A stretch of 64,000 bases of DNA from an uncultured Prevotella sp. (GCA_900770395.1 CAAGKM010000030.1:423210-487209), one strand, 5' to 3'. Counted from the first letter of the stretch, positions 17,885 through 36,633 are shown. Numbers and translations: made by a program. Notes: generated by a model not told the origin, from the letters alone.

Positions 17885-17917
17885 CTTAATTACAGATAAT
17901 AGACTCAAATAAAACAG

Positions 17918-19482: not shown

Positions 19483-19505
19483 TTGTTGCGTTTTTGTTAC
19501 GCGGA
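19483..19505. repeat. Left copy of an imperfect direct repeat (candidate attL core)
   Basis: TTTGTTGCGTTTTTGTTACGCGG matches the sequence at 36611-36633 at 19-20 of 23 positions, including an exact 9-mer TTTGTTGCG; about 75 bp upstream of the first integrase. Confidence 0.3.
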
Positions 19506-19520
19506 ACAAATTGTTTTTAG

Positions 19521-19528
19521 TACCTTTG
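19521..19528 (+). promoter_or_regulatory. -7 box TACCTTTG upstream of the first integrase
   Basis: TAnnTTTG, 52 bp before the ATG at 19580. Confidence 0.45.
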
Positions 19529-19579
19529 CAGACGAAAAACAACACCTCCGCCATGCGGCGAGGACAATTTATGTGATTT

Positions 19580-20764
19580 ATGGGAAGACCGAAGAAGACA
19601 ACCAAGGCAAAGGAGCCAGTGCGCATCCGGGAGCGCAAGCTCGCAAACGGCAACAGGAGCCTCTATCTTGACATCTACTCAAAAGGTGTGCGCAAGGTGG
19701 AGTCGCTCGGCGTGTACCTTGTCCCGGAGAACACGCCTCTTGACAGGATACAGAACGAGCACGCAAGGAGCGTCGCCGAGAAGATAAAGTCCGAGCGCAT
19801 CATCGCGCTGCAGAACTACGGCATAGCCAACCTTGACAAGGTGATGAAAGCCTCGATGCCCCTTCTCGCATATCTTGACAAATACGCCAGTGAGGGTAAC
19901 GGGCTGACCGAATCGACCATGAAGGGGCGTAAGTTCATGCGGCGCAAGGTAGAGGAATACCTGCGCTCGACAGGACGGCTCAACGTGTCCATGCTTGAGG
20001 TCGATGTGGATTTCTGCCGGGGCTTCATCAATTTTCTGCGCACGGCGAAGAACAGGCGGCTGAAAAGCGAGGACAGGACGATAAGCAACTGCACGGGACT
20101 TCAGACACAGGCGGTGTTCACGGCGGCGTTGAACACCGCCCTGCGTGACGGCATCATCGAGCGCAACCCCATGACCCTGCTGACATCCAAGGAACGCTTC
20201 CACCAGCAGGAGAGCACAAGGGTCTATCTCACCATCGATGAACTGAAAAGAATGATGGCCACCCCATGCGATGACGAAGAACTGAAAAAGGCTTTCCTGT
20301 TTGCCTGTTTTACGGGGTTGCGCCTAAGCGACATCCGCACGTTCACATGGAACAAGGTGCTTACGACACCCAACGACTCCACCCGTTATATAAGGGTCAG
20401 GATGCTCAAGACGCAGCAGGTCATCAACGTGCCTCTTTCCAAGGATGCCCTCGGCTATCTCCGTGAGACGGAAGACCGCAACGAGCCGATCTTCCGCCTG
20501 TCAAGAGCGGTCTCCGTCATAGAGCAAAGACTGGCTGAATGGGCGAAAGCGGCCGGAATAGAGAAACATGTCACCTTTCACGTGAGCAGGCACAGCTACG
20601 CTACGATGATGCTGACCATAGGAGTTGACATCTACACCGTCAGCAAGCTGCTCGGACACAAGAATGTGGCGACAACGCAGATATACGCGAAAATTATCGA
20701 CCAGAAGAAGATTGATGCCGTCAACATGATGGACAGGTTTTTCGACAAAGACAGGCAGGCATGA
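19580..20764 (+). CDS. Tyrosine-type site-specific recombinase/integrase (Bacteroides transposon-type)
   Basis: 394 aa with an N-terminal Arg/Lys-rich arm-binding region, a SAM-like domain, and a C-terminal catalytic domain with R…HxxR…Y (HVSRHSYATMML…LLGHKNVATTQIYAKI). Confidence 0.9.
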   Translation: MGRPKKTTKAKEPVRIRERKLANGNRSLYLDIYSKGVRKVESLGVYLVPENTPLDRIQNEHARSVAEKIKSERIIALQNYGIANLDKVMKASMPLLAYLDKYASEGNGLTESTMKGRKFMRRKVEEYLRSTGRLNVSMLEVDVDFCRGFINFLRTAKNRRLKSEDRTISNCTGLQTQAVFTAALNTALRDGIIERNPMTLLTSKERFHQQESTRVYLTIDELKRMMATPCDDEELKKAFLFACFTGLRLSDIRTFTWNKVLTTPNDSTRYIRVRMLKTQQVINVPLSKDALGYLRETEDRNEPIFRLSRAVSVIEQRLAEWAKAAGIEKHVTFHVSRHSYATMMLTIGVDIYTVSKLLGHKNVATTQIYAKIIDQKKIDAVNMMDRFFDKDRQA

Positions 20765-21906
20765 AGATAGAGATAAGGACACGCGAGCTGAAGAACGGCA
20801 ACAGGACAATTTACCTTGACTATTATGACAAAGGCAAGAGGTGGTACGAATATCCCAAGCTGTACCTTGTGCCGGATTCCGCCCCTTATGCGAAGGAACA
20901 GAACAGGAGCGCGATGGACAAGGCAATCGCCATCAGAGCCAGGCGGCTGCTCGGCGAGGCACCGGAAGAGGACGGCAACCGTCCGAAAGACAAGTCCGGC
21001 AAGATGCTTGTCAGCACATGGATGGACGGATATGCCCAAGCCATGCATGCAAACGCGGGGCTTTCCTCCACATACCTCAAGCATTTCGACACGCTCATCC
21101 GCATGGTGAACGGCTATCTCGCACACATCAAAAGCCCGCGTCTCACGATGGACTGCATAGACAGGGATTTTTACCGGGGATTCCTGCACTACATGACCGA
21201 TGTCTATGAGTGCCGGACTTCCGACGGCGGGACAAGACGGCTTGCAAAATCGACCATGCACCTGTTCCAGCTGAAGATGAACACGATGCTCAACCAGGCC
21301 GCAAGGGAGGGTGTCATCAAGTGTAACCCTTATCATCTGCTGTCAAGGAACGAGCGGATAAAAAAGCCGACAGACCGGCGCGACTTCCTGACCCGCGAGG
21401 AACTGCACAGGCTGATGGAGGTTGAGACGCGGAGCATCACAACCAAGACTGCGTTTTTGTTCAGTTGCTTCACCGGCCTGCGCTACAGTGACCTGAAACA
21501 GTTGAAGTGGGGCAACATCGAACAGTCACAGTCCGGGATGGTGATAAGGATAGAGGCGATGAAAAAGACGGAAAAGCCCGTGACCGTCCCTTTGGGCACT
21601 AATGCGATGGCATGGCTGCCCGAGCGCGGCGACAAGACACCCGATGATTTTGTCTTTGATTTAGGCACATGCGGAGGCTGCAACACCGTCCTGAAGAATC
21701 TGGCGAAAAAGGCAGGAATCAACAAAAGGGTCTCTTTCCATACCGGGAGGCACAGCTTCGCAACGCTCACCCTCGCCGCCACGAATGACATTGCAACGGT
21801 GAGCAGACTGCTTGGACACACCTCTGTCGCAACGACACAAATCTATGCGGAGGTGCTGATGGAGGACAAGATTGCAGCCGTAAACAAACTGCACGGTATC
21901 TTTTAA
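20761..21906 (+). CDS. Second tyrosine-type recombinase/integrase (paralog; start overlaps upstream stop, ATGA)
   Basis: 381 aa with the same architecture (FHTGRHSFATLTL…LLGHTSVATTQIYAEV). Confidence 0.9.
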   Translation: MKIEIRTRELKNGNRTIYLDYYDKGKRWYEYPKLYLVPDSAPYAKEQNRSAMDKAIAIRARRLLGEAPEEDGNRPKDKSGKMLVSTWMDGYAQAMHANAGLSSTYLKHFDTLIRMVNGYLAHIKSPRLTMDCIDRDFYRGFLHYMTDVYECRTSDGGTRRLAKSTMHLFQLKMNTMLNQAAREGVIKCNPYHLLSRNERIKKPTDRRDFLTREELHRLMEVETRSITTKTAFLFSCFTGLRYSDLKQLKWGNIEQSQSGMVIRIEAMKKTEKPVTVPLGTNAMAWLPERGDKTPDDFVFDLGTCGGCNTVLKNLAKKAGINKRVSFHTGRHSFATLTLAATNDIATVSRLLGHTSVATTQIYAEVLMEDKIAAVNKLHGIF

Positions 21907-21948
21907 TCCGTGTAACTCGACTATACCTCTTTTATAAAAGCGCATATT

Positions 21949-22881
21949 ATGAAACGACTGTCCGACAATTTTCTTACGATGCTTTTGCCGCTTACAGCAG
22001 TAGCCGCAACCGCATTCGGTATGGTTGCCGCCGTTGCTTTCCGCATGGAAGCGACCACGGCAGGGTTTGTATTTTCCACCTTGTCCATCATCGGATGGAT
22101 CGGGCTGGTTGCCGAATTTTTCCTCTTGTACGACATCATCATAGACAAGTGGTTTTCCAAAGACCGCTCCGTGCTGACCGCCTCATGGTTTGTAATCTCG
22201 CTGCTGCTTGCCTTTATTATCACTCCCGACAAGCATTCGGACTGGGGCACCTGCATCGTCATGGGCTCGCTCTTCGCCGTGCTTTTCCTGCTGCCCTGCA
22301 TCATCGGGATGGCTTACGGCAGACAGATAAAATCATGGCTGATGCAACGGTGGAACAGACTTGTTCCGAAGAAACAACAGAACCCGGATGATTCAGCCGG
22401 ACGGCAAATCGAAGCCGTGCTTTCCGCGTCCACGTTACCCACGACAATGAGACAGGAGGATGAAATCAGGCATTACGACAGCCTTGTCTCACAGGTAAAG
22501 CCTGAGCTTATAATGAAGCTGCCGGAAACCTTGCAGACCAATGACGCGCTGTTCCTGCTGGTACTGTTCCGAGAGGACGGCTATCTCGATACGGACTTCC
22601 TGCCGCTGATGAAAAAGGAGGATGACGAAATAAACCAGACGCTCTATGCCTATATCGCCAGTGCCCTGTGCGCAGCCCTCAAGATACGGAAAGGCAAATG
22701 GGTCATCTTCGAGAAGTTCTGGCCGCTCAACAACGGCGCACAATTGGCAAGCAACTTCAAGACCGCCTACCGGGACAACCCGTCCGAACACCAGAGGCAT
22801 ATCGCCAAGCTGTTGCGCAAGGCGACACGCCTGCGTCCTAAACTTGACACCTACGACCTTGAAGAGTTCAAGAAGGTCTGA
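21949..22881 (+). CDS. Hypothetical membrane protein (about 4 TM helices plus a 190-aa C-terminal cytoplasmic domain)
   Basis: Hydrophobic N-terminal 120 aa followed by a charged soluble domain; no family recognised by eye. Confidence 0.6.
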   Translation: MKRLSDNFLTMLLPLTAVAATAFGMVAAVAFRMEATTAGFVFSTLSIIGWIGLVAEFFLLYDIIIDKWFSKDRSVLTASWFVISLLLAFIITPDKHSDWGTCIVMGSLFAVLFLLPCIIGMAYGRQIKSWLMQRWNRLVPKKQQNPDDSAGRQIEAVLSASTLPTTMRQEDEIRHYDSLVSQVKPELIMKLPETLQTNDALFLLVLFREDGYLDTDFLPLMKKEDDEINQTLYAYIASALCAALKIRKGKWVIFEKFWPLNNGAQLASNFKTAYRDNPSEHQRHIAKLLRKATRLRPKLDTYDLEEFKKV

Positions 22882-23149
22882 GCGGCATCAACGGCATTAT
22901 CCGTATATAATAATTTCCTTGTCCCTGTTCACCCGTCACCGTAACCCGATGGCGGGATTTTTTATGCCCGTCCGTGAACAGGCCTGTTTCTTTCCGCACT
23001 TATAAGTTACCATGTGCGGACAATCCGGGATTATGGAGGGTTTAGAGTTCCATTATACTTCGTTTTAGCCCTATTTATAGTTGCATTTATGCCGTACAAA
23101 GTTCTCTGTTTGTGTCATTTATAGTAATTGCTTCGGGGAAATTCCGCCA

Positions 23150-23157
23150 TACCTTTG
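23150..23157 (+). promoter_or_regulatory. -7 box TACCTTTG upstream of the Xis-like gene
   Basis: TAnnTTTG, 52 bp before the ATG at 23209. Confidence 0.4.
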
Positions 23158-23208
23158 CACTGTCGCCACGACAAAGGCGAAGCAGATTATTCATTAAAAT
23201 ATACGCAC

Positions 23209-23442
23209 ATGACAGAGCAAAGAAAACTTTTAAGCACCAGGGAGGCGGCCGAGTATTGCGGCTTCAAACTTTCCTACTTCCGCAAGCTGATGATGCGCCG
23301 GGCTATCCCGATGTACAAGCCGACGGGCAAACTGTGCTTCTTCAAGAAAGAAGACTTGGACGCTTTCCTCACGGGTGTCCGTATCTCCTCACAGGAAGAA
23401 ATCGCGGAGGAAGCCAACCGCTATATGGCAGGTCGGAAGTAA
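23209..23442 (+). CDS. Small HTH DNA-binding protein, excisionase (Xis)/MerR-like
   Basis: 77 aa from the internal ATG: MTEQRKLLSTREAAEYCGFKLSYFRKLMMRRAIPMYKPTGKLCFFKKEDLDAFL, the typical Bacteroides mobilizable-element excisionase pattern. Confidence 0.55.
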   Translation: MTEQRKLLSTREAAEYCGFKLSYFRKLMMRRAIPMYKPTGKLCFFKKEDLDAFLTGVRISSQEEIAEEANRYMAGRK

Positions 23443-23479
23443 ACAACCTTTTTTATTTACATCAAAAAACAAATGTAGT

Positions 23480-23980
23480 ATGGAACAGAACAGGAACATG
23501 GAACAGGGCGGCACAGCTGCAGCCGTTCCGACAGAGAAGAAGAACGAGAACCGTAAACGTGAAGTAAGCGGTAAGGACGCACAAATCATCCGCGCATTCT
23601 TGGAGAATGTAGGCATCTACGAGGCGGACGCATTACGCGTGAGCATCGCCATTGCCGACGGCAAGGTGTCGGCAGACAACATTTCGGCGGATGACCGCCT
23701 TGCGCTCAACCGCTATCTCAACAGCGGCACGGACAACGACCGTATGACAGCGGACAATGCGCAGGGACATCGGCTGAACCGTGCATTCGGGTTGCTGGAG
23801 CGTGTGGCGGACTTCTGCGAAAAGCAGCAGTTGGTGACGGTAAACAAGGTGCTGCTCTCCGTGGCGGTAAACGCAGATGACATCAGCCATGCCGTATCAA
23901 GCCTTGCCAAGCGTCAGGCATCCGTACAGCCGGCACAGGGAAACGCTGCAAGCAACGGAGCCAACGGAACAGGCAAGTAA
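23480..23980 (+). CDS. Hypothetical protein (166 aa), mobile-element associated
   Basis: ORF from the internal ATG (MEQNRNMEQGG…); low-complexity termini and a central Asp/Ala-rich region. No family assigned. Confidence 0.5.
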   Translation: MEQNRNMEQGGTAAAVPTEKKNENRKREVSGKDAQIIRAFLENVGIYEADALRVSIAIADGKVSADNISADDRLALNRYLNSGTDNDRMTADNAQGHRLNRAFGLLERVADFCEKQQLVTVNKVLLSVAVNADDISHAVSSLAKRQASVQPAQGNAASNGANGTGK

Positions 23981-24251
23981 CCGTATGTGAAAGGTGGAAA
24001 AGGTGAGAAGAAAGCAATAGGTATCTGACATATGTTCATGCAGCCTCCCTTATTTCTTCCCTGCTTTCGGGATTAAACAATCCGGAGGACACCCTGAATG
24101 AGAGCCATACTTTTCTCACCTGACACACGATAACGGTAACATGAGGCCGTGCATGGCACAACGAGAAAGCTGACAGTTATTCCCATGCCGGTTCCTGCAC
24201 GGCTTCATTCTTCTCCAAGCGAAAGTAATATCACATTTATAAAGACAAAGT

Positions 24252-24680
24252 TTGATGAACAAGGAAACATACAGATTCAAGTACCCGGCAGGTGCCGCCT
24301 CGCTGTCATTAGTTTTTTCTCATAAGGCACTGCAATGGCTGCAAGGGACAACGACGGATGATGACGGCAGGGAAACAGTAAACTTCATACTGCTGGGCGA
24401 CCTGCTTGCGAGAATGGCACTTACAGACGGTAAGAGCAAGGAGTTCCGCAGACCGCTCACGCTTTCCGCAGGTCAGGCGCAGTATTCCGAGGAACAGCTT
24501 TCCGCACAGTGGAACATGGGCAGGAAGCGCATACGCAACCTGCTGGACGCACTCACGAAGATGGGGCTTATCGACACCCACCGCTCAAGGGTGGCATCCG
24601 TGATGACCTTCCCGTGCCTGCGTGGGTGGGAAACGGCTGACTGCTGCCGCATATCCAATCCTTTTATACCTCAGGTCTAA
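24252..24680 (+). CDS. Hypothetical protein with a possible winged-helix segment
   Basis: 142 aa; …GRKRIRNLLDALTKMGLIDTHRSR resembles a wHTH recognition helix plus wing. No family assigned. Confidence 0.5.
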   Translation: MMNKETYRFKYPAGAASLSLVFSHKALQWLQGTTTDDDGRETVNFILLGDLLARMALTDGKSKEFRRPLTLSAGQAQYSEEQLSAQWNMGRKRIRNLLDALTKMGLIDTHRSRVASVMTFPCLRGWETADCCRISNPFIPQV

Positions 24681-24793
24681 TTCTTTTATCCATGAACAGA
24701 GGGAAGAGTATGAGCTGAAGAACGGAGGAATAAGAGCCGGACATGAGCCGAAAGACAGCCAAGCTGACAATGACACAGAGGGCATAGCCGCCA

Positions 24794-24931
24794 TTTTGTT
24801 GTACCGCAATACAAAATCTGTCATGTCTCAATATGGGGCAAAAGTGACAGACGGAGTGCTGGAGTGGCATGAAGCGATAGCGTTGAGTTTCGAGGTATGC
24901 CGAGGTATTACCGCCTCCGGACGGTATTACC
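24794..24931. promoter_or_regulatory. Candidate oriT / relaxosome assembly region upstream of the mob genes
   Basis: 7-bp inverted repeat ATTTTGT…ACAAAAT (24794-24817) and direct repeats GGTATTACC at 24904-24912 and 24923-24931, in the 370-bp spacer before the MobA-like gene. Confidence 0.3.
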
Positions 24932-25051
24932 ACGACGCTCTCGCAACGCCCCGGAAGGTCGTTGTCCCAGCCGCTCGCAGGCTCGCACCTTCCCCTCTTT
25001 TAGACACCGTTTCACGATTATTTCAAGGACACCCATTATATCAGGACATAT

Positions 25052-25507
25052 ATGGAACACGAAGATACTTCCATTCAGGAAAATCAGGAATCCGGGCAGG
25101 AGAAGCCCGTTATACGGCGTGACAAGGTGGTAGTCACCAAAGTCACGGAGCAGGAGCTGTTGCGGATTAAAGGCACGGCGGAGCAGTGCGGCATGACACG
25201 CAGCGACTTCATACGGGCAAGGGCACTCGACTACAGACCGAGGAAGCGGCTTTCGGTTACGGAGGTGGACGGCCTCAGGCAGCTTGCAGCATGTCGGACG
25301 GACATGGTGAACTTCGCCAACGCCCTGCACGGGCTGAACGACAACGAGAAGATACGCCTTTTCCGGCATCAGCCCACCATGCTCGAATGGTACGAGAAAG
25401 TGGCGCATATCACAGACCGTGTCACGGACTTTTTGCAGTCCGCGCAGAAGGCGAACAGCTATCCTGCGGAAACAACAGATGAAGAAACAAAGGAGGACGA
25501 GATATGA
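25052..25507 (+). CDS. Relaxosome accessory protein (MobA/MobC-like, Bacteroides-type)
   Basis: 151 aa; …LLRIKGTAEQCGMTRSDFIRARAL… is a ribbon-helix-helix-like region. The stop overlaps the relaxase start (ATGA), as in Bacteroides mobA-mobB pairs. Confidence 0.65.
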   Translation: MEHEDTSIQENQESGQEKPVIRRDKVVVTKVTEQELLRIKGTAEQCGMTRSDFIRARALDYRPRKRLSVTEVDGLRQLAACRTDMVNFANALHGLNDNEKIRLFRHQPTMLEWYEKVAHITDRVTDFLQSAQKANSYPAETTDEETKEDEI

Positions 25508-26763
25508 TAGCCAATGCAAAATCCATCAGCCACGGCATACGGGCGATATTGTATGTGTCGGGCGAGTCGAGGAACAAGAAACATCCGGAGAAGATAACTC
25601 GCATCTGCGACAACTTCATGCCACAGGGCATGGACGCTTCGGGTATCTGGACGGAGATGAAGTTCGCCACGATGAACCGCCCCGACATCAAGAATGATGT
25701 CATCCGCATGGAGATAAGCCCGGCGATGGAGCACACCGGGGACTTCACCGTCGAGGATTGGCGGAAGCTGTGGTGTGACTTCGCGGCGGCTTACGACAAC
25801 CAGACGATACTTGACGATGACGGCAAGGTCATTTCCGTGCCGACCAACATATCGGGCAGCAAGTCCTCCGTGTGGCTACATCTTGAATCCGACAGCGGCA
25901 TACCCCACCTCCATGCCGTAGTGTGCCGGATTGACGAGAACGGGAACATCAACAACGACCACGCCATCCACATCAGGGCACAACGGGCTGCGGAAAAAGT
26001 TGCCCGACAAAGAGGATGGACGACCGCCATGCAGATACACGAAAGCAACATTCCCAAGGTTAGCGCCGACTGCATGGACGCCTTGCGCGAACTGTCCGAA
26101 TGGTCATGGGAAGGTTACAAGGAAAGGCTCGCCGCCAGAGGCTACGAGCTGCATCAGCGCAAGGATAATGAGAAGAACATACGCGGCTATGTGCTCTGCA
26201 AGGGGAACACGAGGTTCAAGGCTTCGGAACTTGGAAAGGGGCGCAACCTGACCGCATCCCATATCATACAGACATGGGAGAAGCTGCATCCCGAAAAGAC
26301 TGAGCAAGCGAGCTTGACACCAAAACAATCTGTTGTAACGACACCGAACTCACCTGCCACAAAAGAACACGCACCACTGTTACAGTCCGAAGTGCAGCAT
26401 AACAATCCAGCTTATGAGGATTACACAGAATGGCAGTCCGACCGCCTGCGCACGGAGTTCGAGCATGACGGCAGGAACTACGACCGCTATATCCCCGGAA
26501 AGGTGCTCGACTGCCTGAATGACGAGTTCGACCACCGGGAATTGGCGAACTGGCAGGCTTTGCAGAATCTGGCTGTGGCCTTTTTTACCCTTGTCGCCTC
26601 TCCTTATGGGGAGATGTCCGGCGGTGGCGGAGGCAGCTCGCAGTCCGACCTCAAATGGGGGCGCGACCCGGAAGAGGACGAGATTGAGTTTGCCCGTCGT
26701 TGTGCACGTGAGGCTTCGCACAGGATTGGCAGACAAATGAAATCAGGAATGAAACGCAAATGA
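25504..26763 (+). CDS. Relaxase/mobilization nuclease (MobB-like, MOBP-type)
   Basis: N-terminal MIANAKSISHGIRAILYV (the catalytic-Tyr region typical of MobA/VirD2-like relaxases) and the His triad …HLHAVVCRID. Confidence 0.85.
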   Translation: MIANAKSISHGIRAILYVSGESRNKKHPEKITRICDNFMPQGMDASGIWTEMKFATMNRPDIKNDVIRMEISPAMEHTGDFTVEDWRKLWCDFAAAYDNQTILDDDGKVISVPTNISGSKSSVWLHLESDSGIPHLHAVVCRIDENGNINNDHAIHIRAQRAAEKVARQRGWTTAMQIHESNIPKVSADCMDALRELSEWSWEGYKERLAARGYELHQRKDNEKNIRGYVLCKGNTRFKASELGKGRNLTASHIIQTWEKLHPEKTEQASLTPKQSVVTTPNSPATKEHAPLLQSEVQHNNPAYEDYTEWQSDRLRTEFEHDGRNYDRYIPGKVLDCLNDEFDHRELANWQALQNLAVAFFTLVASPYGEMSGGGGGSSQSDLKWGRDPEEDEIEFARRCAREASHRIGRQMKSGMKRK

Positions 26764-26781
26764 CAAACCTAAAAAACATCA

Positions 26782-27324
26782 GTGACAATGAAACAACCCG
26801 ATACGTCCGCCCTACGGGAGCGGCTTGCCAATTATACACCCGGACAGGAGCTGGAGCAGGACAAGCAGGAACTTGAAGGACTGCTTCAGGAAGTAAGTGA
26901 CCAAATTTTTGCCATGCGCAATTTGCTCAAGGAAATCAATGAACTCAAGGAAGAACTGCACGACATACACGGAAGCCTGATGCACACTGCCAAACGGGAG
27001 CGAGTGGCTTTTAATGCTTTGAACGCGGCCAAGGACAGTGCGGACAACATTGTGAATGGTATCTGCAACGCCATTGTAAAAGCGGAACGGCATACCGTCA
27101 TACAAGCCACAGTCGGCACTGACGAACTGGAAAAGGTAAGCCAATGTTCTGCAGCCCACATCAAGGCGGAGGAAGAACTTTTGGAAAGGCACAGAAACAA
27201 GTTAGCCAGACACCTCCGTGACAATGAAGGTGTCTGGTTGTCCGACCGCTGGCTCAAGATTCTGTTCGCAGTGCAGTTGCTTTGTTATCTTGCGGTGGCA
27301 TTGTGGGTAATGCTGAAAGGATAA
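26782..27324 (+). CDS. Coiled-coil protein with a C-terminal transmembrane anchor, hypothetical
   Basis: 180 aa with heptad-like Leu/Glu/Lys-rich coiled coil and a hydrophobic C-terminal helix (ILFAVQLLCYLAVALWVMLKG). Confidence 0.5.
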   Translation: MTMKQPDTSALRERLANYTPGQELEQDKQELEGLLQEVSDQIFAMRNLLKEINELKEELHDIHGSLMHTAKRERVAFNALNAAKDSADNIVNGICNAIVKAERHTVIQATVGTDELEKVSQCSAAHIKAEEELLERHRNKLARHLRDNEGVWLSDRWLKILFAVQLLCYLAVALWVMLKG

Positions 27325-27409
27325 ACTGATTGTTCGCAATCTCCTTTTCGAGGGGACAAGGCTATCTGTATATTTCGACAAACAACAGCTATATGTTGTT
27401 ATTCGACAA

Positions 27410-28081: not shown

Positions 28082-28111
28082 ACGTTTATCTTTTGCCCGA
28101 TAGAACTTTAT

Positions 28112-28966: not shown

Positions 28967-28989
28967 TTCGATTGTAATTTTTTGGATTA

Positions 28990-29832: not shown

Positions 29833-29843
29833 CTTTGATTATT

Positions 29844-30857: not shown

Positions 30858-30863
30858 ATCGGA

Positions 30864-31355
30864 TTATTTACCGCTGTTAATAGTTTCAAGCCACTCCGAA
30901 AACTGCCTTTCAGACAAAGGTCTGTTCAGCAATTTTCCGGAACACCAGTCTATTTCAGGATAGGCTTTGCGCAGATTTTTCTCACAGTTGGCAATGCCGC
31001 TGCCGCCCGAAGTGGCAAACGGTACCACTTTCTTACCTGCAAGGTTGTGGCTTTCAATGAACGTGTTGATGATAGTCGGTGCGATGTACCACCATACGGG
31101 GAAACCGATGAACACCACATCATACTTCTCCATACCGGACACCCGCCCAGCAATGGCAGGACGGGAAGTCACATCACGCATCTCCACGGAACTACGGCTC
31201 TGGCGATTATTCCAGTTCAAGTCTGCATCCGTGTAGGGTTGCTCCGGTACTATTTCATGTAAATCGGCGTTAGCCACGGCCGCCAGTTCACGGGCAGCCT
31301 CCCTTGTCGTACCGCTACAAGAGAAATAGGCGACCAATATTTTTTTACTACTCAT
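30864..31355 (-). CDS. Flavodoxin (Flavodoxin_4-like), cytoplasmic
   Basis: [20 protein letters not shown]…[11 protein letters not shown]…; the likely start is the internal MSSKK (the track ORF runs to 31394). Confidence 0.75.
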
Positions 31356-31372
31356 GTCGTTCTTCTTTATAA

Positions 31373-32317
31373 TTACACCATAGGCATTTCCCAAGAGCCT
31401 CTTGTATCGACTCCGGTACTCTCTGCCGCATTTTCCAGAGTGTTCATCTCCTCCTCAGTCAGCGTCACCTTTATAGCTTCCAACGCATCCTGAACCTGAA
31501 CAGGCTTAGTCACGCCGATAATCGGGGTCGTGCCTTTGCCAATCGCCCAAGCCAAGGCAACCTGTGCCGGTGTGATGCCGTATTTCTCGCCGACAGTACG
31601 CATAACGGCAATGAGTTTTTCAATCTGAGGCAACAACGGATTATAGGTGTCACCACGTTGGCTTCCGGCAGGCAGCGGGTGGGCGGTGTCATATTTTCCG
31701 CTTAACGCGCCTTGCTCCAGCACCATGTAAGCCCAGAAGTCAATGCCGTTTTCCTTGCAATAGTCAAGGATGCCGGCTTTCTCCGATGAACGGTAAAGGA
31801 GGCTGAAGTGATTCTGCACTGCGGAGATATGCACACCCTCTTTGGAAAGGATTTCTTCAGCACGCTTGATCTGTGTAAGGTTGTGGTTGGAGACGCCTAC
31901 ACGTCTTACCTTGCCGCTTTTCACGAGGTCGGCGAGGAACGGAGTCCATTTCTCCACATCAGCAGGATTGTGAATCCAGTAAATGTCGATATAGTCTGTG
32001 CCGAATCGTTCGAGGCTGCCGTTGAGCATATCTTCCACGGGATTGGCAGACTCACCGGCAATCTGAGGAGTGAACTTCGTTGAGATAAGCACATCCTCGC
32101 GATTGCACTCTTTGGTAAATGCGGCGAGTACGTTTTCCGAAGCGCCCATGCCGTACACCACGGCTGAATCCCACAGGTTCAGCCCTCCGGCCATTGCCGC
32201 ATCGAATACGGGCTTCAGTTCATTCACGCCGAGGTTGTTCCCGAATACCTGATCGCCTCCGGCGAATCCTGCGCCCCACGACCATGTGCCTAATGCTATT
32301 GACGGTTGATTTTTCAT
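31373..32317 (-). CDS. Aldo/keto reductase
   Basis: LGTWSWG…, conserved AKR catalytic tetrad context, [12 protein letters not shown]. Confidence 0.9.
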
Positions 32318-32363
32318 TTTTGTTTCTCCTTATTGATTTTATTGTTATTCTGATTTTGATTGT

Positions 32364-33002
32364 TTAACGTATGAAATTCGTCATAGTATGCTGTTCATGC
32401 ACCGGGAACTCTATGCCGTGTTCACGCCCTGTTGCGATGCACTTCAGCAACCATGCCATGTTTCTTGCAAGTGTGCGCATGGTCTGTAGCCCCTCAACAT
32501 CCCGGCGGATTTCATCCGGTGTATTCCCGTGGACTACGTTCCAGTATTGCGACGGTACGATAGGCATATTGCAGTCGGTCATATATTTGTTCATCTGATC
32601 AAGTGCAGCCGTTGCACCGCTACGGCGACAAGTTGCTATTGCAGCGGCAGGTTTCCCGGCAAAGTGGTCGCCATTGTACTCGTCAATCAGAAACACCCTG
32701 TCAAGGAACGAGGTCACGGCACCGCTTGCAGCCGCATAGTGTACGGGAGTGCCGAACACGAAACCGTCATACTCATCCATTATCTTCACGAACTCGTTGA
32801 CTTTGTCGTTTCGGAAGCAGCTACGCTTACCCACGCACGCCCCACAGCCGATACATCCGGCTAACGGCTGATTGCCAACCCAGAATATCGTCGATTCGAT
32901 TCCCTCGCTTTTGAGCGTGTCGGCAATTTCCGACAAAGCGGTGTGAACACATCCGTCCTTGTGAGGGCTTCCGTTTACCAATAATACTTTCAATGTGTTC
33001 AT
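32364..33002 (-). CDS. Flavodoxin-like NAD(P)H-dependent FMN reductase / iron-sulfur flavoprotein
   Basis: KVLLVNGSPHKDGCVHTAL… with a Cys cluster (CIGCGACVGKRSC) and FGTPVHYAAASG. Confidence 0.75.
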   Translation of the reverse strand: MNTLKVLLVNGSPHKDGCVHTALSEIADTLKSEGIESTIFWVGNQPLAGCIGCGACVGKRSCFRNDKVNEFVKIMDEYDGFVFGTPVHYAAASGAVTSFLDRVFLIDEYNGDHFAGKPAAAIATCRRSGATAALDQMNKYMTDCNMPIVPSQYWNVVHGNTPDEIRRDVEGLQTMRTLARNMAWLLKCIATGREHGIEFPVHEQHTMTNFIR

Positions 33003-33015
33003 ATTCTTGGCCTTG

Positions 33016-33204
33016 TCATTTGTTCATATCAGGCAGGAGGACACCTCCGACTCCCACGTTCTCAGGTTCGTTCTCCTTGATGAAGACGAAGATTACATTT
33101 TCGGGAAGCCCGGTAATGCGTGATGTCGATTCAGTGACTTCTTTGACCAACTGAGCTTTCTTCTCCTTGCTCATCTTGACCAGTTCCATTGTTATTGAAG
33201 GCAT
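33016..33204 (-). CDS. 4-oxalocrotonate tautomerase family protein
   Basis: 62 aa beginning MPSITMELVKMSKEKKAQLVKEVT (Pro1 catalytic residue). Confidence 0.7.
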   Translation of the reverse strand: MPSITMELVKMSKEKKAQLVKEVTESTSRITGLPENVIFVFIKENEPENVGVGGVLLPDMNK

Positions 33205-33238
33205 GATATTTTCTTTTTTTCAGGTTAAACGATTTGTG

Positions 33239-33802
33239 TTACAGGTTCTCTTCACGGAATTTCTTGCCGAATGAAGTGCATTTGCCTATCATCTCGCCGG
33301 TACGCAGGTAAGAATAGGTGGGCATCTCGAAGAGGACGGGCTTCAGTTTGTTGTAGTCCACCTTACCGGCCTCGTTGAGCATATCTTCCTCGACGTATGT
33401 GTTGGATATCTTGCAGATGAAGTTGTCGAAAGTCTCCGTTTCATAGTTCTCCACGGCTTCACACTCCATAATCAAAGGGCTGTCCTCTATTACGGGAGTG
33501 CCGGCTTCTCCGGGATGCCATGCGAAAACCTGCGACTTGTCAACTTTTGCACCGCTTGTAATACCTACATAGTCAGCACGGGGAAGCAGAGCTTCATCAA
33601 CAATGTTCACGGAAAGATGCCCGGTCATTCTAACACCAAGGTTCGTGTGATGTGCTTTGTGCAGACTGACAAGAATGCGATCGTGCCCGATGATGCCTAT
33701 ATGACCGGCAAGCAACCAGGTCGGCTTGTCATCTATCATTGTCCCCACAACAACTGCCGGTGTGGGATAAAGGGCTAATACAGATCCGATGTTCTTTTTC
33801 AT
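33239..33802 (-). CDS. Flavin reductase-like (FMN-binding split-barrel) protein
   Basis: …LALYPTPAVVVGT… and the split-barrel pattern. Probable start MKKNIG at 33802; the track ORF extends to 33841. Confidence 0.7.
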   Translation of the reverse strand: MKKNIGSVLALYPTPAVVVGTMIDDKPTWLLAGHIGIIGHDRILVSLHKAHHTNLGVRMTGHLSVNIVDEALLPRADYVGITSGAKVDKSQVFAWHPGEAGTPVIEDSPLIMECEAVENYETETFDNFICKISNTYVEEDMLNEAGKVDYNKLKPVLFEMPTYSYLRTGEMIGKCTSFGKKFREENL

Positions 33803-33921
33803 TTTTCTTGAAGTATTATGCTGTTTATAAATCTGTTGCAAAGATAGCGTGCTTGCTGCAAATAGACTGTATCCGTATTACGGACGATAGTAACTGCATT
33901 ACGGTATCTTCTGCGCGTGTG

Positions 33922-34410
33922 TTATTTTACCGCTTCGGAATATTCCTCATCCGTTACAGGATTGAGCCAGGTATTCTTGTTGGTCTGCGGATTACATTCG
34001 ATAGCCAGATGTGAGAACCAGCTGTCGGGAGTCGCCCCGTGCCAATGCACTACGTCAGGTGCTATTTCGACCACATCACCGGCTTTAAGCCGTCTTGCGG
34101 GCTTGCCCTTTTCCTGATAATAACCCTCGCCACCGACACATACAAGAATCTGTCCGCCTGTATGACTGTGCCAGTTGTTGCGGCATCTCGGCTCGAACGT
34201 CACATTCGATACAGGCACATTCAGTTCCTTCATAGAAGTCAGCGGGGCCAGCCATGAGCGGCCGCTGAAATATTGCTCGTATGCGACATTCGGTTTGCCT
34301 GTGGGGAATGCGCTGATTTCCGGTACTTCTGTTTCCATATTCTTATTGCTGTTACAGCCGGCAGCCAGTATAACAATCGCTGCGGAGGCCAATAGTTTTG
34401 AGATTCTCAT
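33922..34410 (-). CDS. Cupin-domain lipoprotein
   Basis: Lipoprotein signal (…ILAAGCNS); cupin motifs (HSHTGGQILVCVGGEG…HWHGA). Confidence 0.7.
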   Translation of the reverse strand: MRISKLLASAAIVILAAGCNSNKNMETEVPEISAFPTGKPNVAYEQYFSGRSWLAPLTSMKELNVPVSNVTFEPRCRNNWHSHTGGQILVCVGGEGYYQEKGKPARRLKAGDVVEIAPDVVHWHGATPDSWFSHLAIECNPQTNKNTWLNPVTDEEYSEAVK

Positions 34411-34435
34411 ATTGTGAGTTGATGTGTTAATTCAA

Positions 34436-35239
34436 TTAGCGGTTTATCATTATTTTCTTTGATACCGTATGTGTGCCGGAACTGACCTGCGCCAGATAGA
34501 TGCCTGATGTAAGTGCGGAGGTTTCAATTAAGTTTCGGGATGATTCCAACACCTTGCTGCCGGAAAGGTTGTAGAGCGCAACTCTATCAAACTCACCATC
34601 TATATAAATCGTGCCGGATGCGACATTGATATTCACGTCTTTGTCACTCACAACAGATTCTACGGCACTTGCAAGCGTATTGTAGTCAATCTGCTCCAAC
34701 CAGTTGGCAATTAAAGAATGACTGTTGGATGTTTGAGCGGAACGAATCCAAAGACTTGGTGTTACGAAGTCTCCATTCGGTATAAGACGGTGTGCATCGG
34801 CTTCCACTCCGCTTATCCCACTGCTCGCGCTCGAAACGATAAGTCCTATTTTCTTGCCTGCCATTTTTGCCCCGTTATGGAAAAGGAATGTCTGCATCGG
34901 CGCGGCCATATTGCTCCACCATAACGGTGCGGCCACAATTACCATATCATACTCATCGAAATTCACATCCACCGGCTTGATTCTGGGATAGGAAGCCGCA
35001 TCATCGGGATTGTTGCGGATCGCCGAGATTAACGCGCTGCCAATGGCATAATTGTTGGCGGCATAGTCCAGCCCTTCTTCCGAGGGTTCTATTCTGACCA
35101 TATCCGCTCCCGTCTGCGCCTGCAAATCGGTCGCGATGGTGTGGACATTGTTTGTAAAGCTGTAGTAAACTATCAGCGTTTTCGCGTTGATGGTGATTGC
35201 TGTAAGTGCAACGACCAATGTCAGGATTAACTTTTTCAT
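34436..35239 (-). CDS. Exported flavodoxin-like (Flavodoxin_4) protein with a T9SS C-terminal sorting domain
   Basis: Sec signal (MKKLILTLVVALTAITINA). Flavodoxin_4-like core (TLIVYYS…VIVAAPLWWSNM…), paralogous to 30864-31355. C-terminal about 75 aa (…VALYNLSGSKVLE…GIYLAQVSSGTHTVSKKIMINR) looks like a T9SS type-A CTD. Confidence 0.65.
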   Translation of the reverse strand: MKKLILTLVVALTAITINAKTLIVYYSFTNNVHTIATDLQAQTGADMVRIEPSEEGLDYAANNYAIGSALISAIRNNPDDAASYPRIKPVDVNFDEYDMVIVAAPLWWSNMAAPMQTFLFHNGAKMAGKKIGLIVSSASSGISGVEADAHRLIPNGDFVTPSLWIRSAQTSNSHSLIANWLEQIDYNTLASAVESVVSDKDVNINVASGTIYIDGEFDRVALYNLSGSKVLESSRNLIETSALTSGIYLAQVSSGTHTVSKKIMINR

Positions 35240-35481
35240 TTTCGTAAACCTTTTTAATGTTGATACTTATTTTTCTGGTGCAAAGGTAAGGGACTTTATT
35301 GGTAATGGCTGTATCTGCATTACGGACAAGAGTGATTATATTACGGAATGTTATCGTCATACACAAATCTCTTACAACCAAGCGTGTATGCCATATATGA
35401 AATTTGTACGAATCTTACGGATATTTGTAACTGTATTACGGATTTCATACTCTGCCATGCGTAATTCCCATCTAAAATAGC

Positions 35482-35489
35482 TACCTTTG
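35482..35489 (+). promoter_or_regulatory. -7 box TACCTTTG for the AraC regulator (divergent from the cargo operon)
   Basis: TAnnTTTG, 24 bp before the ATG at 35513. Confidence 0.45.
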
Positions 35490-35512
35490 CACAAAAAAAT
35501 TGAAATGCTTTT

Positions 35513-36412
35513 ATGAAAGAGGTAATAAAGGTCAGCACAATCGACCAATATAATAAGCTGTTCGGGCTGGAAACCTTGCATCCGTTGGTTTCCGTTGTCG
35601 ATTTGTCGAAAGCCCCGATATGGCCGGATCATTTTCGCTTCAATTATGGGGTATATTGCATCTATCTGAAAGATGCGAAATGCGGAACTATCCGATACGG
35701 ACGGCAGAACTACGATTATCAGGAAGGTAGCATTGTCGCCTTTGCTCCTGGACAAATCGCCAATGTCGATATGGAGCGGGGTATGAAACCGTCGGGTCTG
35801 GGCGTACTATTCCACCCGGATTTACTTCGTGGGACACCGCTTGGCAGAGAAATCGACAGGTATTCGTTCTTCTCATACGATGTGAACGAGGCACTGCACG
35901 TTTCGGAAAGAGAAAGGAAAATCCTCGTGGACTGTATTGACAAAATCGCTTATGAAATGGAACATTCGATAGACCAGCATAGCAAGCGGTTGATTGCAAC
36001 AAATATCGAATTGTTCCTTGACTACTGTATGCGGTTTTATGACCGCCAGTTCATCACGCGCTCAGAAGTTCACCACGATGTACTTGTGAAATTTGAGCGG
36101 CTGTTGGACGAGTATTTCAAAAACGAGCATTTACGCAAAAACGGTTTACCGCAAGTGCGATACTTTGCCGATAAAGTATGTCTTTCACCTAATTATTTCG
36201 GAGACCTTATAAAGAAAGAAACCGGCATGACCGCTCAGGAATATATTCAAAACAAGATAATCAATGTTTCCAAAGACTGGGTCGCAAACACTAATTTGAC
36301 CGTCAGTCAGATAGCATACGAACTTGGATTCCAGTACTCCCAACATTTCAGCCGTGTCTTTAAGAAAAGCGTGGGATGCACGCCTTTGGAGTATAGGAGA
36401 GCACAGGCATAG
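35513..36412 (+). CDS. AraC-family transcriptional regulator
   Basis: C-terminal double HTH (…QIAYELGFQYSQHFSRVFKKSVGCTPLEYRR) and an N-terminal cupin-like ligand domain. Confidence 0.9.
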   Translation: MKEVIKVSTIDQYNKLFGLETLHPLVSVVDLSKAPIWPDHFRFNYGVYCIYLKDAKCGTIRYGRQNYDYQEGSIVAFAPGQIANVDMERGMKPSGLGVLFHPDLLRGTPLGREIDRYSFFSYDVNEALHVSERERKILVDCIDKIAYEMEHSIDQHSKRLIATNIELFLDYCMRFYDRQFITRSEVHHDVLVKFERLLDEYFKNEHLRKNGLPQVRYFADKVCLSPNYFGDLIKKETGMTAQEYIQNKIINVSKDWVANTNLTVSQIAYELGFQYSQHFSRVFKKSVGCTPLEYRRAQA

Positions 36413-36420
36413 GGGAACTA

Positions 36421-36457
36421 AAGGAGGATGTGTTTTCATTTGCACATCCTCCTTTTA
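36421..36457 (+). terminator. Rho-independent terminator after the AraC gene
   Basis: Perfect 12-bp stem AAGGAGGATGTG / CACATCCTCCTT with a 10-nt loop, followed by TTTTAT. Confidence 0.55.
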
Positions 36458-36610
36458 TATCACATATTCATTCCCTTTGGTCGGTTCTCAACACTGTAAT
36501 TGTAGGTCTGCAGTTGTCTATAACATAATTAGATCCAACCATTTTAATTGCTATAAAGTTTTCAAGTCATTAATCTCGTTGTCACATCACAGTTTATATT
36601 TTCCTATTTT

Positions 36611-36633
36611 TTTGTTGCGAATTTGTTGCGCTA
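36611..36633. repeat. Right copy of the imperfect direct repeat (candidate attR core)
   Basis: TTTGTTGCGAATTTGTTGCGCTA; see 19483-19505. Confidence 0.3.

What the first reader, a model, noticed from the sequence alone, without database searches (positions are those of the whole stretch)
19483..36633. About 17 kb putative integrative mobilizable element bounded by an imperfect 21-23 bp direct repeat
Order from left to right: DR-L, -7 promoter, two overlapping tyrosine recombinase genes, a 4-TM protein, an Xis-like HTH, two unknown ORFs, oriT-like repeats, a MobA-like/relaxase pair (overlapping ATGA), a coiled-coil membrane protein, the cargo operon plus AraC, a terminator, then DR-R. The repeats TTTGTTGCGTTTTTGTTACGCGG and TTTGTTGCGAATTTGTTGCGCTA share an exact 9-mer and 19-20 of 23 positions. 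The element sits between ispF plus an AT-rich islet on the left and an AT-rich junction before the msbA-like gene on the right. No tRNA is present at either junction, so the target is not the tRNA 3' end typical of NBU elements. Two tandem integrases is an uncommon layout.
Basis: partly seen in the sequence, partly recalled or inferred. Interest (0 to 1): 0.6.

Follow-up and report, generated by a model that had tools for sequence, protein, structure and literature searches.

The report
Two-integrase mobilizable element, borders corrected

Summary
Three contigs from other samples carry the uninterrupted target site. Near-identical copies, one of them 99.97% identical over 17,355 bp, sit at 10 or more unrelated chromosomal sites.

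The borders are not the proposed 23-bp repeats. The inserted DNA is window 19335-36694 (17,360 bp). The conserved ends are TTAAGTTTTGC on the left and ACAAAATCAAT on the right, separated from the target by a 5-nt semi-variable segment. That segment differs between attL and attR, as it does for CTnDOT.

Each is a tandem pair of TTTGTTRCG with 11-bp spacing. The same pairs, at the same distances from the ends, occur in relatives whose Int1 is only about 55% identical and whose cargo and target differ. Together with the conserved arm-binding domains, this marks them as probable arm-type integrase sites.

Tandem integrases are common in Bacteroidales relatives (29 of 69 loci) and were reported for Prevotella intermedia MTnPi1-3. 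Verdict: a new member of a known kind, of moderate-to-low interest.

The parts
19335..19339 (.). attL 5-nt semi-variable 'coupling'/overlap segment (TATAT); first inserted base is 19335
   Evidence: The empty site reads AAT-GATAT-TGAAC. The 5 nt between the flank and the conserved element end vary among 10 attL junctions.
19340..19350 (+). Conserved left end of the element, TTAAGTTTTGC (putative core-type half-site)
   Evidence: Identical in 11 left junctions at 10 different sites.
19356..19375 (-). Degenerate tandem arm-type motif in inverted orientation (reverse complement TTGTTTCGATTTTGTTTTC), next to the left core
   Evidence: (I3). A similar inverted pair lies in the same place in L026 and L110. 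The assignment is tentative.
19482..19504 (+).
   Evidence: It is conserved upstream of Int1 in relatives with 51-57% identity and changes to TTTGTCCC or TTTGTTTC in more distant clades.
19521..19528 (+). TACCTTTG, matching the Bacteroidetes -7 promoter consensus TAnnTTTG, upstream of int1
   Evidence: Read from the sequence. A TAnnTTTG element is conserved at the same place in relatives. Its function is inferred.
19580..20764 (+). Int1, tyrosine recombinase (394 aa) with arm-binding, SAM_5 core-binding and catalytic domains
   Evidence: Pfam PF17293, PF13102 and PF00589. The R-K-H-R-H-Y residues are invariant in alignment A1. The MGRPKK N-terminus is conserved in relatives, which supports the 19580 start.
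20761..21906 (+). Int2, second tyrosine recombinase (381 aa), 36% identical to Int1, with a 4-bp overlap with int1
   Evidence: The catalytic hexad is intact in 18 of 18 orthologues.
21949..22881 (+). 310-aa backbone protein with an N-terminal 4-TM region and no recognised family
   Evidence: A 56%-identical homologue lies in the related backbone L051.
23209..23442 (+). 77-aa excisionase-type HTH (HTH_17), candidate recombination directionality factor
   Evidence: TIGR01764 'excise' E 1.2e-9, 38 bits against a cut-off of 28.8; PF12728 on record.
23480..23980 (+). 166-aa backbone protein, no family
24255..24680 (+). 141-aa protein with a weak winged-helix match, a possible regulator
24890..24990 (+). 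Candidate oriT: sequence blocks (CGAGGTATGCC, GCGCTCTCGCA, CGCTCGCAGGCTCGCA) conserved with a backbone that is only 41-52% identical at the protein level
   Evidence: Inferred, not tested.
25052..25507 (+). NikA/MbpA-like relaxosome accessory protein
   Evidence: PF21983 E 3e-11; NF041418 MbpA E 2.7e-11.
25504..26763 (+). Relaxase (419 aa), distantly MbpB-like
   Evidence: NF041420 MbpB E 8.7e-26, below the cut-off, and PF03432 E 8e-5. About 30% identical to plasmid MbpB.
26788..27324 (+). 178-aa coiled-coil protein with a C-terminal TM helix
27410..35239 (-). Cargo operon: FMN reductases, CMD/PcaC-like protein, Flg_new/Lcl_C protein, Amidohydro_2, flavodoxins, aldo-keto reductase, 4-OT tautomerase, flavin reductase, cupin, and a flavodoxin-like protein with a T9SS tail
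   Evidence: Its composition varies between copies.
35513..36412 (+). AraC-family regulator, divergent from the cargo operon
36420..36455 (+). Perfect 13-bp hairpin followed by a T-rich run, a terminator after araC
   Evidence: I1.
36611..36633 (+).
   Evidence: The same motif lies 82-83 bp before the right core in L027 and L110.
36684..36694 (+). Conserved right end of the element, ACAAAATCAAT (putative core-type half-site); the last inserted base is 36694
   Evidence: Identical in 11 right junctions at 8 different sites.
36695..36699 (.). attR 5-nt overlap segment (GATAT), identical to the empty site and therefore target DNA

Best explanation
Window 19335-36694 is an intact, currently mobile integrative mobilizable element (mobilizable transposon) of gut Bacteroidales, here inserted in a small ORF of an uncultured Prevotella.

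How it most likely works:
1. Recombination. Two co-transcribed tyrosine recombinases of the CTnDOT/NBU integrase group, Int1 and Int2, both catalytically intact, recombine an attP with the core ACAAAATCAAT-N5-TTAAGTTTTGC. The chromosomal targets resemble it loosely (about AAnnTGAT-GATRT-TGAAnTT). Strand exchange occurs across an overlap that contains the 5-nt segment and tolerates mismatches, as with IntDOT. As a result attL and attR carry different 5-mers and no target duplication is made.
2. Arm sites. The recombinases are positioned by their N-terminal arm-binding domains on subterminal tandem TTTGTTRCG repeats. A degenerate inverted pair probably lies next to the left core. The left distal pair overlaps the int1 promoter, so it may also autoregulate int1.
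3. Excision and transfer. An excisionase-type HTH probably gives directionality. After excision, a NikA/MbpA-like protein and an MbpB-like relaxase nick an oriT upstream of their genes. The circle is then transferred by the mating apparatus of a co-resident conjugative transposon, because the element has no coupling protein and no T4SS genes.
4. Cargo. The cargo is an AraC-controlled set of flavin- and NAD(P)H-dependent reductases and aromatic-acid-type enzymes, probably for detoxification of quinones, aldehydes or phenolics.

Shown: the insertion, the exact ends, the multiple sites, the heterologous overlap 5-mers, conservation of the integrase pair and its catalytic residues, and conservation and positioning of the repeats.

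Inferred: which protein binds the repeats, the need for both integrases, the cleavage positions, oriT, the helper element, and the cargo function.
For: Empty site: three contigs from other samples (L004, L114, L115) have flanks about 99% identical to the window and read GTTGAAAATAAT-GATAT-TGAACTTC, with nothing in between.

Second complete copy: L111 holds 17,355 bp with 5 mismatches between unrelated genes. Its attL 5-mer is AATAT and its attR 5-mer is AATTT. In the window attL is TATAT and attR is GATAT, the latter equal to attB.

Other junctions: the element and close variants give 10 distinct attL and 8 distinct attR junctions. All break exactly at TTAAGTTTTGC and ACAAAATCAAT, and the flanks share a loose consensus.

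Modules. No tra or T4CP genes lie between the ends.

Integrases: the two are 36% identical to each other. The catalytic residues are invariant in Int1 relatives and in 18 of 18 Int2 orthologues. Every determinable locus with Int1 at 43% identity or more has the pair, 29 of 69 loci overall.

Repeats: there are only four copies in 64 kb, all subterminal. The tandem motif is conserved upstream of Int1 in 14 relatives and changes with the integrase clade. Two complete relatives with other cargo and another core have the motif at both ends at the same distances: L027 (Phocaeicola faecicola) and L110 (Segatella hominis, type I R-M plus MobV cargo).

Domains: against relatives that share the motif, Int1's arm-binding domain is 65-79% identical to the window's, the core-binding domain 38-50% and the catalytic domain 48-56%. 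This fits conserved arm sites with diverged core sites.

[quoted passage not shown] P. intermedia MTnPi1-3 have tandem int genes and an N5-containing att, and a copy lacking int2 did not excise (PMC4755523).

Host range: clusters at 90% identity or more for Int2 and AraC include Phocaeicola vulgatus, P. massiliensis, Bacteroides xylanisolvens and Odoribacter records.
Against: No excised circle or attP junction was found. Two scans of JGI metagenomes gave nothing relevant, but that collection seems to hold few copies of the element.

No binding or cleavage data exist. The repeats could be bound by the HTH protein or by a host factor, and the left pair sits where a -33 promoter element would be.

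The 5-nt segment is not random (consensus GATRT), so part of it may be recognition sequence rather than a free coupling sequence. The exact cleavage positions are therefore unknown.

The requirement for both integrases rests on conservation and on one published natural deletion in a different element.

The relaxase matches known families only weakly, and oriT is only a conserved block.
Confidence: 0.8

Rival explanations
1. One reading: the imperfect 21-23-bp direct repeats are the att sites (attL/attR), the element is 19483-36633, and recombination takes place within the repeat.
For: The repeats are real, directly oriented, near both ends, and statistically unexpected.
Against: Three empty sites place the junctions at 19334/19335 and 36694/36695. 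In 10 attL and 8 attR junctions at other sites, about 145 bp to the left and 61 bp to the right of the repeats stay with the element. The empty site contains no copy of the repeat.
Confidence: 0.02
2. The element is as delimited here, but the tandem TTTGTTRCG repeats are not integrase arm sites. They would be binding sites for the excisionase-type HTH or another accessory or host protein, or promoter/operator elements of int1 (the -33 TTTG of a Bacteroidetes promoter).
For: The left pair lies 20-40 bp upstream of a TAnnTTTG -7 element, and each unit contains TTTG. In lambda the Xis sites are also tandem direct repeats (textbook knowledge).
Against: The right pair has no downstream gene or -7 element and points out of the element. 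The motif is nearly unchanged in relatives where the HTH_17 homologue is absent from the backbone or at most 36% identical, whereas Int1's arm-binding domain is 65-79% identical. The motif keeps fixed distances to the core at both ends in three diverged elements. A dual role as arm site and operator is not excluded and is part of the best explanation.
Confidence: 0.2
3. Only one of the two integrases moves the element. The other would be a redundant paralogue, a regulator, or a recombinase for another reaction such as multimer resolution or an inversion.
For: Single integrases suffice for CTnDOT, NBU1 and Tn4555 (PMC8138268, and established knowledge). Forty of 69 more distant relatives have a single gene. 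L029 carries a frameshifted Int2.
Against: The pair, in the same order and with overlapping or closely spaced genes, is kept in all relatives with Int1 at 43% identity or more across several families. Both catalytic hexads are intact. An MTnPi1 copy that lacks the second gene does not excise (PMC4755523).
Confidence: 0.25
4. The segment is a fixed genomic island that is no longer mobile, and its presence or absence between strains reflects deletion or homologous exchange.
For: No circular form was recovered.
Against: There are 99.97%-identical copies of identical length at unrelated loci. Ten or more sites have base-exact ends. All genes are intact. Close variants occur in several genera.
Confidence: 0.02

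Closest known systems
MTnPi1, MTnPi2 and MTnPi3 of Prevotella intermedia (Naito et al. 2016, PMC4755523)
   Same: They are Prevotella mobilizable transposons of 16.5-18.4 kb with two tyrosine-integrase genes in tandem at one end and a relaxase. Their att site has two short conserved blocks around a variable N5, they insert into ordinary genes rather than tRNA genes, and they occur at multiple sites.
   Different: Their att core is TTAC/TTGC-N5-AA flanked by GATTAG and GATAAT, whereas this element has CAAT-N5-TTAA. They carry a primase-family gene, which was not recognised here. Their cargo differs.
CTnDOT integration system (IntDOT, attDOT)
   Same: It belongs to the same integrase group, with an arm-binding domain, an extended core-binding domain and a catalytic domain. 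It has subterminal arm-type sites and loosely conserved target sites that resemble attP. Its overlap contains a 5-bp coupling sequence that differs from site to site and between attL and attR. It makes no target duplication (PMC2817482, PMC8138268).
   Different: CTnDOT is a 65-kb self-transmissible element with one integrase that lacks the first catalytic Arg. Here there are two integrases, both with the canonical Arg, and no transfer genes. The core sequence is different (not GTANNTTTGC), and the 5-mer is biased towards GATRT.
NBU1 and NBU2 (Bacteroides mobilizable insertion elements)
   Same: They are integrative elements of Bacteroidales mobilised in trans by CTns. Their tyrosine integrase belongs to the same group and has the canonical Arg. 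They have a relaxase and an internal oriT.
   Different: NBU elements have one integrase and integrate into the 3' end of a tRNA-Leu or tRNA-Ser gene through an identical core of 13-14 bp. This element has two integrases, no tRNA target, and many sites.
pLV22a-type MbpA/MbpB mobilization module of Bacteroides plasmids
   Same: It has a small ribbon-helix-helix/NikA-like protein followed by an overlapping relaxase gene. The N-terminal 268 aa of the relaxase here match MbpB (E 8.7e-26).
   Different: Identity is only about 30%, and the score of 91 bits is far below the family cut-off of 400. The relaxase here is 419 aa with an unrelated C-terminal part, no MbpC was recognised, and the module sits on an integrative element rather than a plasmid.
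XerC/XerD at dif, and TnpA/TnpB of Tn554
   Same: These are two paralogous tyrosine recombinases encoded or acting together on one site, a possible analogy for a heteromeric Int1/Int2 complex.
   Different: Xer proteins lack arm-binding domains and resolve dimers. Tn554 is a Firmicutes transposon with a third protein, TnpC. No evidence was obtained here for a heteromer. This is an analogy only, drawn from general knowledge.

Membership tests
Integrative mobilizable element / mobilizable transposon (IME, MTn) | Discrete DNA segment that is present or absent at a site with base-exact ends | tested here: met
   Three empty sites, a second full copy, and 10 attL plus 8 attR junctions.
Integrative mobilizable element / mobilizable transposon (IME, MTn) | Encodes its own integrase(s) | tested here: met
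   Two PF00589 recombinases with intact catalytic residues.
Integrative mobilizable element / mobilizable transposon (IME, MTn) | Encodes a relaxase and oriT but no mating-pair-formation or coupling-protein genes | tested here: met
   A NikA/MbpA-like protein and an MbpB-like relaxase are present. No T4SS or T4CP family appears among the element's proteins. oriT is only inferred.
Integrative mobilizable element / mobilizable transposon (IME, MTn) | Excises to a circle and is transferred by a helper element | not testable with these tools
   No attP junction was found in two metagenome scans. This needs PCR, long reads and mating assays.
IntCTnDOT subgroup of tyrosine recombinases | Bacteroidota integrase with an N-terminal arm-binding domain, SAM_5-type core-binding domain and catalytic domain | tested here: met
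   PF17293, PF13102 and PF00589 in both proteins. Relatives are found only in Bacteroidota-type contigs. No phylogenetic placement was made.
IntCTnDOT subgroup of tyrosine recombinases | Recombination tolerant of heterology in the overlap (coupling sequence) | tested here: met
   The attL and attR 5-mers differ in both complete copies: TATAT/GATAT and AATAT/AATTT. The cleavage sites themselves were not determined.
NBU1/NBU2 family | Integration into the 3' end of a tRNA gene through an identical 13-14-bp core | tested here: not met
   There is no tRNA in the window. The targets are protein-coding or intergenic sites with a loose consensus.
NBU1/NBU2 family | Single integrase | tested here: not met
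   Two integrase genes.
MTnPi1-3 group (P. intermedia) | Two tandem tyrosine-integrase genes at the element end | tested here: met
   PMC4755523.
MTnPi1-3 group (P. intermedia) | att site TTAC/TTGC-N5-AA with GATTAG and GATAAT flanks | tested here: not met
   The ends here are CAAT-N5-TTAAG, against Table S3 and Fig. S2 of PMC4755523. The MTnPi end motif is absent from all 112 loci fetched.
MTnPi1-3 group (P. intermedia) | Homologous integrases, relaxase and primase-family protein | not testable with these tools
No primase family was recognised in this element's proteins.
MbpB relaxase family (NF041420) | Score above the curated cut-off (400 bits) | tested here: not met
   91 bits, E 8.7e-26, covering the N-terminal 268 aa only. 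It is a distant relative, not a member.

The most novel reading that the evidence does not exclude
Int1 and Int2 form an obligate heteromeric recombinase, in the manner of XerC/XerD but with arm-binding domains. The complex would be built on a conserved scaffold of tandem arm sites, and its target specificity would be re-programmed by divergence of the core-binding domains alone. This would explain how one conserved two-integrase and arm-site module serves both elements that insert at one site (ACGAAGTA, in a traJ-like gene of conjugative transposons) and this promiscuous element.
Probability: 0.35. Interest if true: 0.55.

Novelty: new member of a known kind. Interest (0 to 1): 0.3.

Why it matters
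The result gives base-exact ends, a target consensus and a predicted attP for a mobilizable element that is circulating now among gut Prevotella, Phocaeicola, Bacteroides and Odoribacter. The element disrupts genes where it lands, including SusC/SusD genes and conjugative-transposon genes, and it carries a variable redox and detoxification operon.

The result also shows that the two-integrase module reported once in oral Prevotella is widespread in Bacteroidales. The module comes with a conserved arrangement of arm sites, which makes the open question of why these elements need two integrases directly testable with the named sites and proteins.

For genome annotation it is a caution: subterminal arm-site repeats can be mistaken for att repeats, here misplacing the borders by about 60-150 bp.

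Tried and rejected
1. Scan of JGI metagenome contigs for the left end (ATATTTAAGTTTTGCGGAAAG): 0 hits. In hindsight the pattern included variable bases.
2. Scan for the predicted attP junction ACAAAATCAAT-N5-TTAAGTTTTGC: one hit, L109, which is unrelated DNA and a chance match. No evidence about the circle was obtained either way.
3. The genome-contig scan with an Int1 alignment did not return the element itself. The host was therefore identified only through protein clusters as Prevotella sp..
4. Attempts to reach P. intermedia MTnPi sequences failed. These were a megablast of a published attL 39-mer against the plasmid collection and a search for the end motif in all fetched loci. Both gave nothing.
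5. Pfam did not recognise the gene interrupted by the S. hominis relative. NCBIfam gave only a weak TraJ match.
7. Literature searches for functional work on tandem integrases in Bacteroidales found only PMC4755523.
8. A symmetry analysis of the core could not discriminate homo- from hetero-tetramer binding. The target consensus is quasi-palindromic (AAGTT...AACTT), while attP is less so.
9. NCBIfam gave only generic names for the cargo, so no specific substrate is proposed.

Full report
**Observation**

Each consists of two 9-mers, TTTGTTRCG, spaced 11 bp apart. This 9-mer occurs four times in the 64-kb window, always in these two places; 1.3 occurrences are expected by chance, and none of 100 shuffles reached four.

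The gene order is as described:
- Two tyrosine-recombinase genes with a 4-bp overlap (19580-20764 and 20761-21906). Each has an arm-binding, a SAM_5 core-binding and a catalytic domain.
- A 310-aa protein with four N-terminal TM helices.
- A 77-aa excisionase-type HTH.
- Two proteins with no recognised family.
- A NikA/MbpA-like gene overlapping a 419-aa relaxase gene.
- A coiled-coil protein with a C-terminal TM helix.
- A minus-strand operon of flavin- and NAD(P)H-dependent enzymes.
- A divergent AraC gene followed by a hairpin terminator.

These rest. There is no tRNA gene in the window.

**True borders**

A look-up of the flanking ispF protein returned a contig from another sample, L004, whose flanks are 99% identical to the window. 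In L004 the DKNYY gene and the small ORFs run straight into the sequence that lies to the right of the element in the window. Identity with the left flank runs through window 19334, and identity with the right flank starts at 36692, with an ambiguous AAT. Two further contigs from other samples, L114 and L115, carry the same uninterrupted site GTTGAAAATAAT-GATAT-TGAACTTC.

The insertion splits a 74-aa ORF. The inserted DNA is therefore 19335-36694, or 17,360 bp.

**Mobility**

Exact-protein look-ups with Int2, AraC, a close Int1 variant and the CMD-family cargo protein returned the element or close variants at many unrelated places. These include sites in or next to SusC/TonB-receptor and SusD genes, a GH123 gene, Mfa-type fimbrial genes, the coupling-protein and tra regions of conjugative transposons, and others.

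All right junctions break after ...ACAAAATCAAT (8 distinct sites). All left junctions break before TTAAGTTTTGC (10 distinct sites).

One contig, L111, holds a complete second copy. It is 17,355 bp from TTAAG to CAAT, the same length as in the window, with five mismatches, and it lies between a YjeF/carbohydrate-kinase gene and a GH123 gene.

Housekeeping proteins of the window cluster with Prevotella sp. MAG proteins. The clusters at 90% identity or more for Int2 and AraC contain records from Phocaeicola vulgatus, P. massiliensis, Bacteroides xylanisolvens and Odoribacter. The element is therefore recent, intact and circulating across families of Bacteroidales.

**Junction structure**

[quoted passage not shown] In the window attL has TATAT and attR has GATAT, and the empty site has GATAT. 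In L111 attL has AATAT and attR has AATTT. The two junctions of one insertion are thus not identical in this segment, and there is no target duplication.

The flanks share a loose consensus, about AAnnTGAT on the left and TGAAnTT on the right. This resembles the two halves of the predicted attP, ACAAAATCAAT-N5-TTAAGTTTTGC.

This is the pattern described for CTnDOT. [quoted passage not shown] By analogy, the invariant AT that precedes the 5-mer in attP and in 9-10 of 10 targets may be the homology-dependent side of the overlap. That step is inference, because the cleavage positions were not determined.

A scan of one genome per species with an Int1 alignment gave 80 loci across Bacteroidota.

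Conservation of the motif:
- In all 14 relatives with Int1 at 51-57% identity, a tandem pair TTTGTTGC(A/G)-nn-TTTGTT(G/A)C lies 50-100 bp upstream of int1, followed by a TAnnTTTG -7 element.
- In the clades at about 44-46% identity the unit is TTTGTCCC or TTTGTTTC instead.

Positions in complete relatives:
- L027 (Phocaeicola faecicola, 11.4 kb) and L110 (Segatella hominis, 17.9 kb, with type I restriction-modification and MobV cargo) have both ends visible. They use a different core, a direct repeat of ACGAAGTA.
- In both, the tandem motif occurs once about 120-135 bp inside the left core and once 82-83 bp before the right core, in the same orientation. In the window the distances are 143 and 84 bp.
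- A degenerate inverted pair lies next to the left core in the window (19356-19375) and in L026 and L110.

Domain-wise identity tells the same story. Between the window's Int1 and the relatives that share the motif, the arm-binding domain is 65-79% identical, the core-binding domain 38-50% and the catalytic domain 48-56%. Int2 shows the same ranking, at 41-60%, 25-33% and 46-54%.

Conserved arm-binding domains with conserved subterminal repeats, and diverged core-binding domains with different cores and targets, are what is expected if the repeats are arm-type integrase sites. Such sites are documented for IntDOT (PMC8138268).

The main alternative is that the excisionase-type HTH or a host factor binds the repeats, or that they are promoter elements. 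This is weakened because the right pair has no gene or -7 element downstream, and because the motif is kept where the HTH homologue is absent or at most 36% identical. The left pair does overlap the int1 promoter region, so a second role in autoregulation is plausible.

**The two integrases**

Int1 and Int2 are 36% identical. The R-K-H-R-H-Y residues are invariant in the Int1 alignment and in 18 of 18 Int2 orthologues.

Every locus whose Int1 is at least 43% identical and whose contig allows a judgement has the pair in the same order. Overall 29 of 69 determinable loci have the pair, spanning Muribaculaceae, Paraprevotella, Bacteroides, Phocaeicola, Leyella, Paludibacteraceae and others. The 41-kb S. 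hominis stretch holds two such pairs.

The layout has been published for P. intermedia MTnPi1-3. These are elements of 16.5-18.4 kb with an att site TTAC/TTGC-N5-AA, and a copy lacking the second gene did not excise (PMC4755523). Tandem integrases are therefore a conserved module in this lineage and not an oddity. Why two are needed is not known. A heteromeric complex is the most attractive reading, but nothing here tests it.

**Transfer and cargo**

No coupling-protein or T4SS family was found among the element's proteins, so transfer must depend on a helper element.

The relaxase is a distant relative of MbpB of small Bacteroides plasmids. The match has E 8.7e-26 and 91 bits against a cut-off of 400, with about 30% identity to plasmid MbpB. 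Its partner is NikA/MbpA-like. Blocks conserved with a backbone that is only 41-52% identical at the protein level mark 24890-24990 as a candidate oriT.

The cargo contains FMN reductases, flavodoxins, an aldo-keto reductase, an Amidohydro_2 enzyme, a PcaC-like CMD protein, a 4-oxalocrotonate tautomerase, a cupin, a flavin reductase and two exported proteins, all under an AraC regulator. It receives only generic names, and its composition differs between copies. Detoxification of quinones, aldehydes or phenolic compounds is a reasonable guess and no more than that.

**Comparison and verdict**

The element works like a CTnDOT- or NBU-type integration module attached to an MbpAB-like mobilization module. 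It is a mobilizable transposon in the sense used for Bacteroidales.
- It is not an NBU element, because it has no tRNA target and has two integrases.
- It shares the two-integrase layout, the size and the N5-type att format with MTnPi1-3. Its att sequence differs, and protein relatedness could not be tested.

The finding is real and its borders are now corrected, but it is a new member of a known kind. The points of some interest are the conserved arm-site architecture of the two-integrase module and the switch from a single specific target in relatives to promiscuous targeting here.

Noticed in passing
L110 19757-19763 and 37694-37700; left flanks of L019-L032 (about 245 bp upstream of Int1): The relatives whose Int1 is about 55% identical all sit at the same target, ACGAAGTA(T/G)AG. 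In Segatella hominis this lies in the gene next to traK-traM of a conjugative transposon. The interrupted gene gives a weak TraJ match (TIGR03782, E 3e-6) and no Pfam hit. A clade of two-integrase elements may specifically insert into, and interrupt, a transfer gene of conjugative transposons.
   Followed up: partly
L110 38633-40971: A second, different tandem pair of site-specific integrase genes starts less than 1 kb to the right of the first element in the S. hominis 317-kb replicon. This suggests that two-integrase elements can pile up next to each other.
   Followed up: no
window 34436-35239 (-) and 28990-29832 (-): The redox cargo operon encodes a flavodoxin-like protein with a T9SS C-terminal sorting domain (Por_Secre_tail). 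It also encodes a Listeria-Bacteroides-repeat/Lcl_C protein. Apparently exported proteins therefore sit among otherwise cytoplasmic reductases.
   Followed up: no
L010, L014, L015, L012, L013, L016 (cargo regions): Copies with the same ends and the same AraC protein carry different cargo. Some have an added zinc-ADH, a DUF362 protein and a 635-aa RCC1-repeat protein. Others have an extra flavodoxin, AKR and CMD set, and one has a DDE_Tnp_1 insertion sequence inside the operon. The cargo region is being remodelled quickly.
   Followed up: no
L010/L014/L015, L100, L102, L105, L099/L106, L013/L017: Several insertions truncate SusD or SusC/TonB-receptor genes. Others lie beside the coupling-protein gene or inside the tra region of conjugative transposons. 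The element therefore inactivates host and helper-element genes when it lands.
   Followed up: partly
window 17600-19334 and 36695-37640: The target lies in a low-GC islet (0.37-0.44, against about 0.52 around it). The islet encodes a DKNYY-family protein and several small hydrophobic ORFs with no recognised family. It is contiguous in the empty-site contigs and may itself be strain-variable DNA.
   Followed up: no
protein P0008: One database protein (455 aa) combines AraC HTH and response-regulator domains with the C-terminal 78% of an Int1 that is 89% identical. It is probably a gene-call or assembly chimera across an element junction.
   Followed up: no
L051 4647-9506; plasmid-collection record OY726067.1 93524-100857: The backbone from the 310-aa protein to the relaxase (HTH 86% identical, relaxase 50-52%) is also found behind a different, more distant pair of integrases. 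The recombination and mobilization modules have therefore been exchanged between elements.
   Followed up: partly
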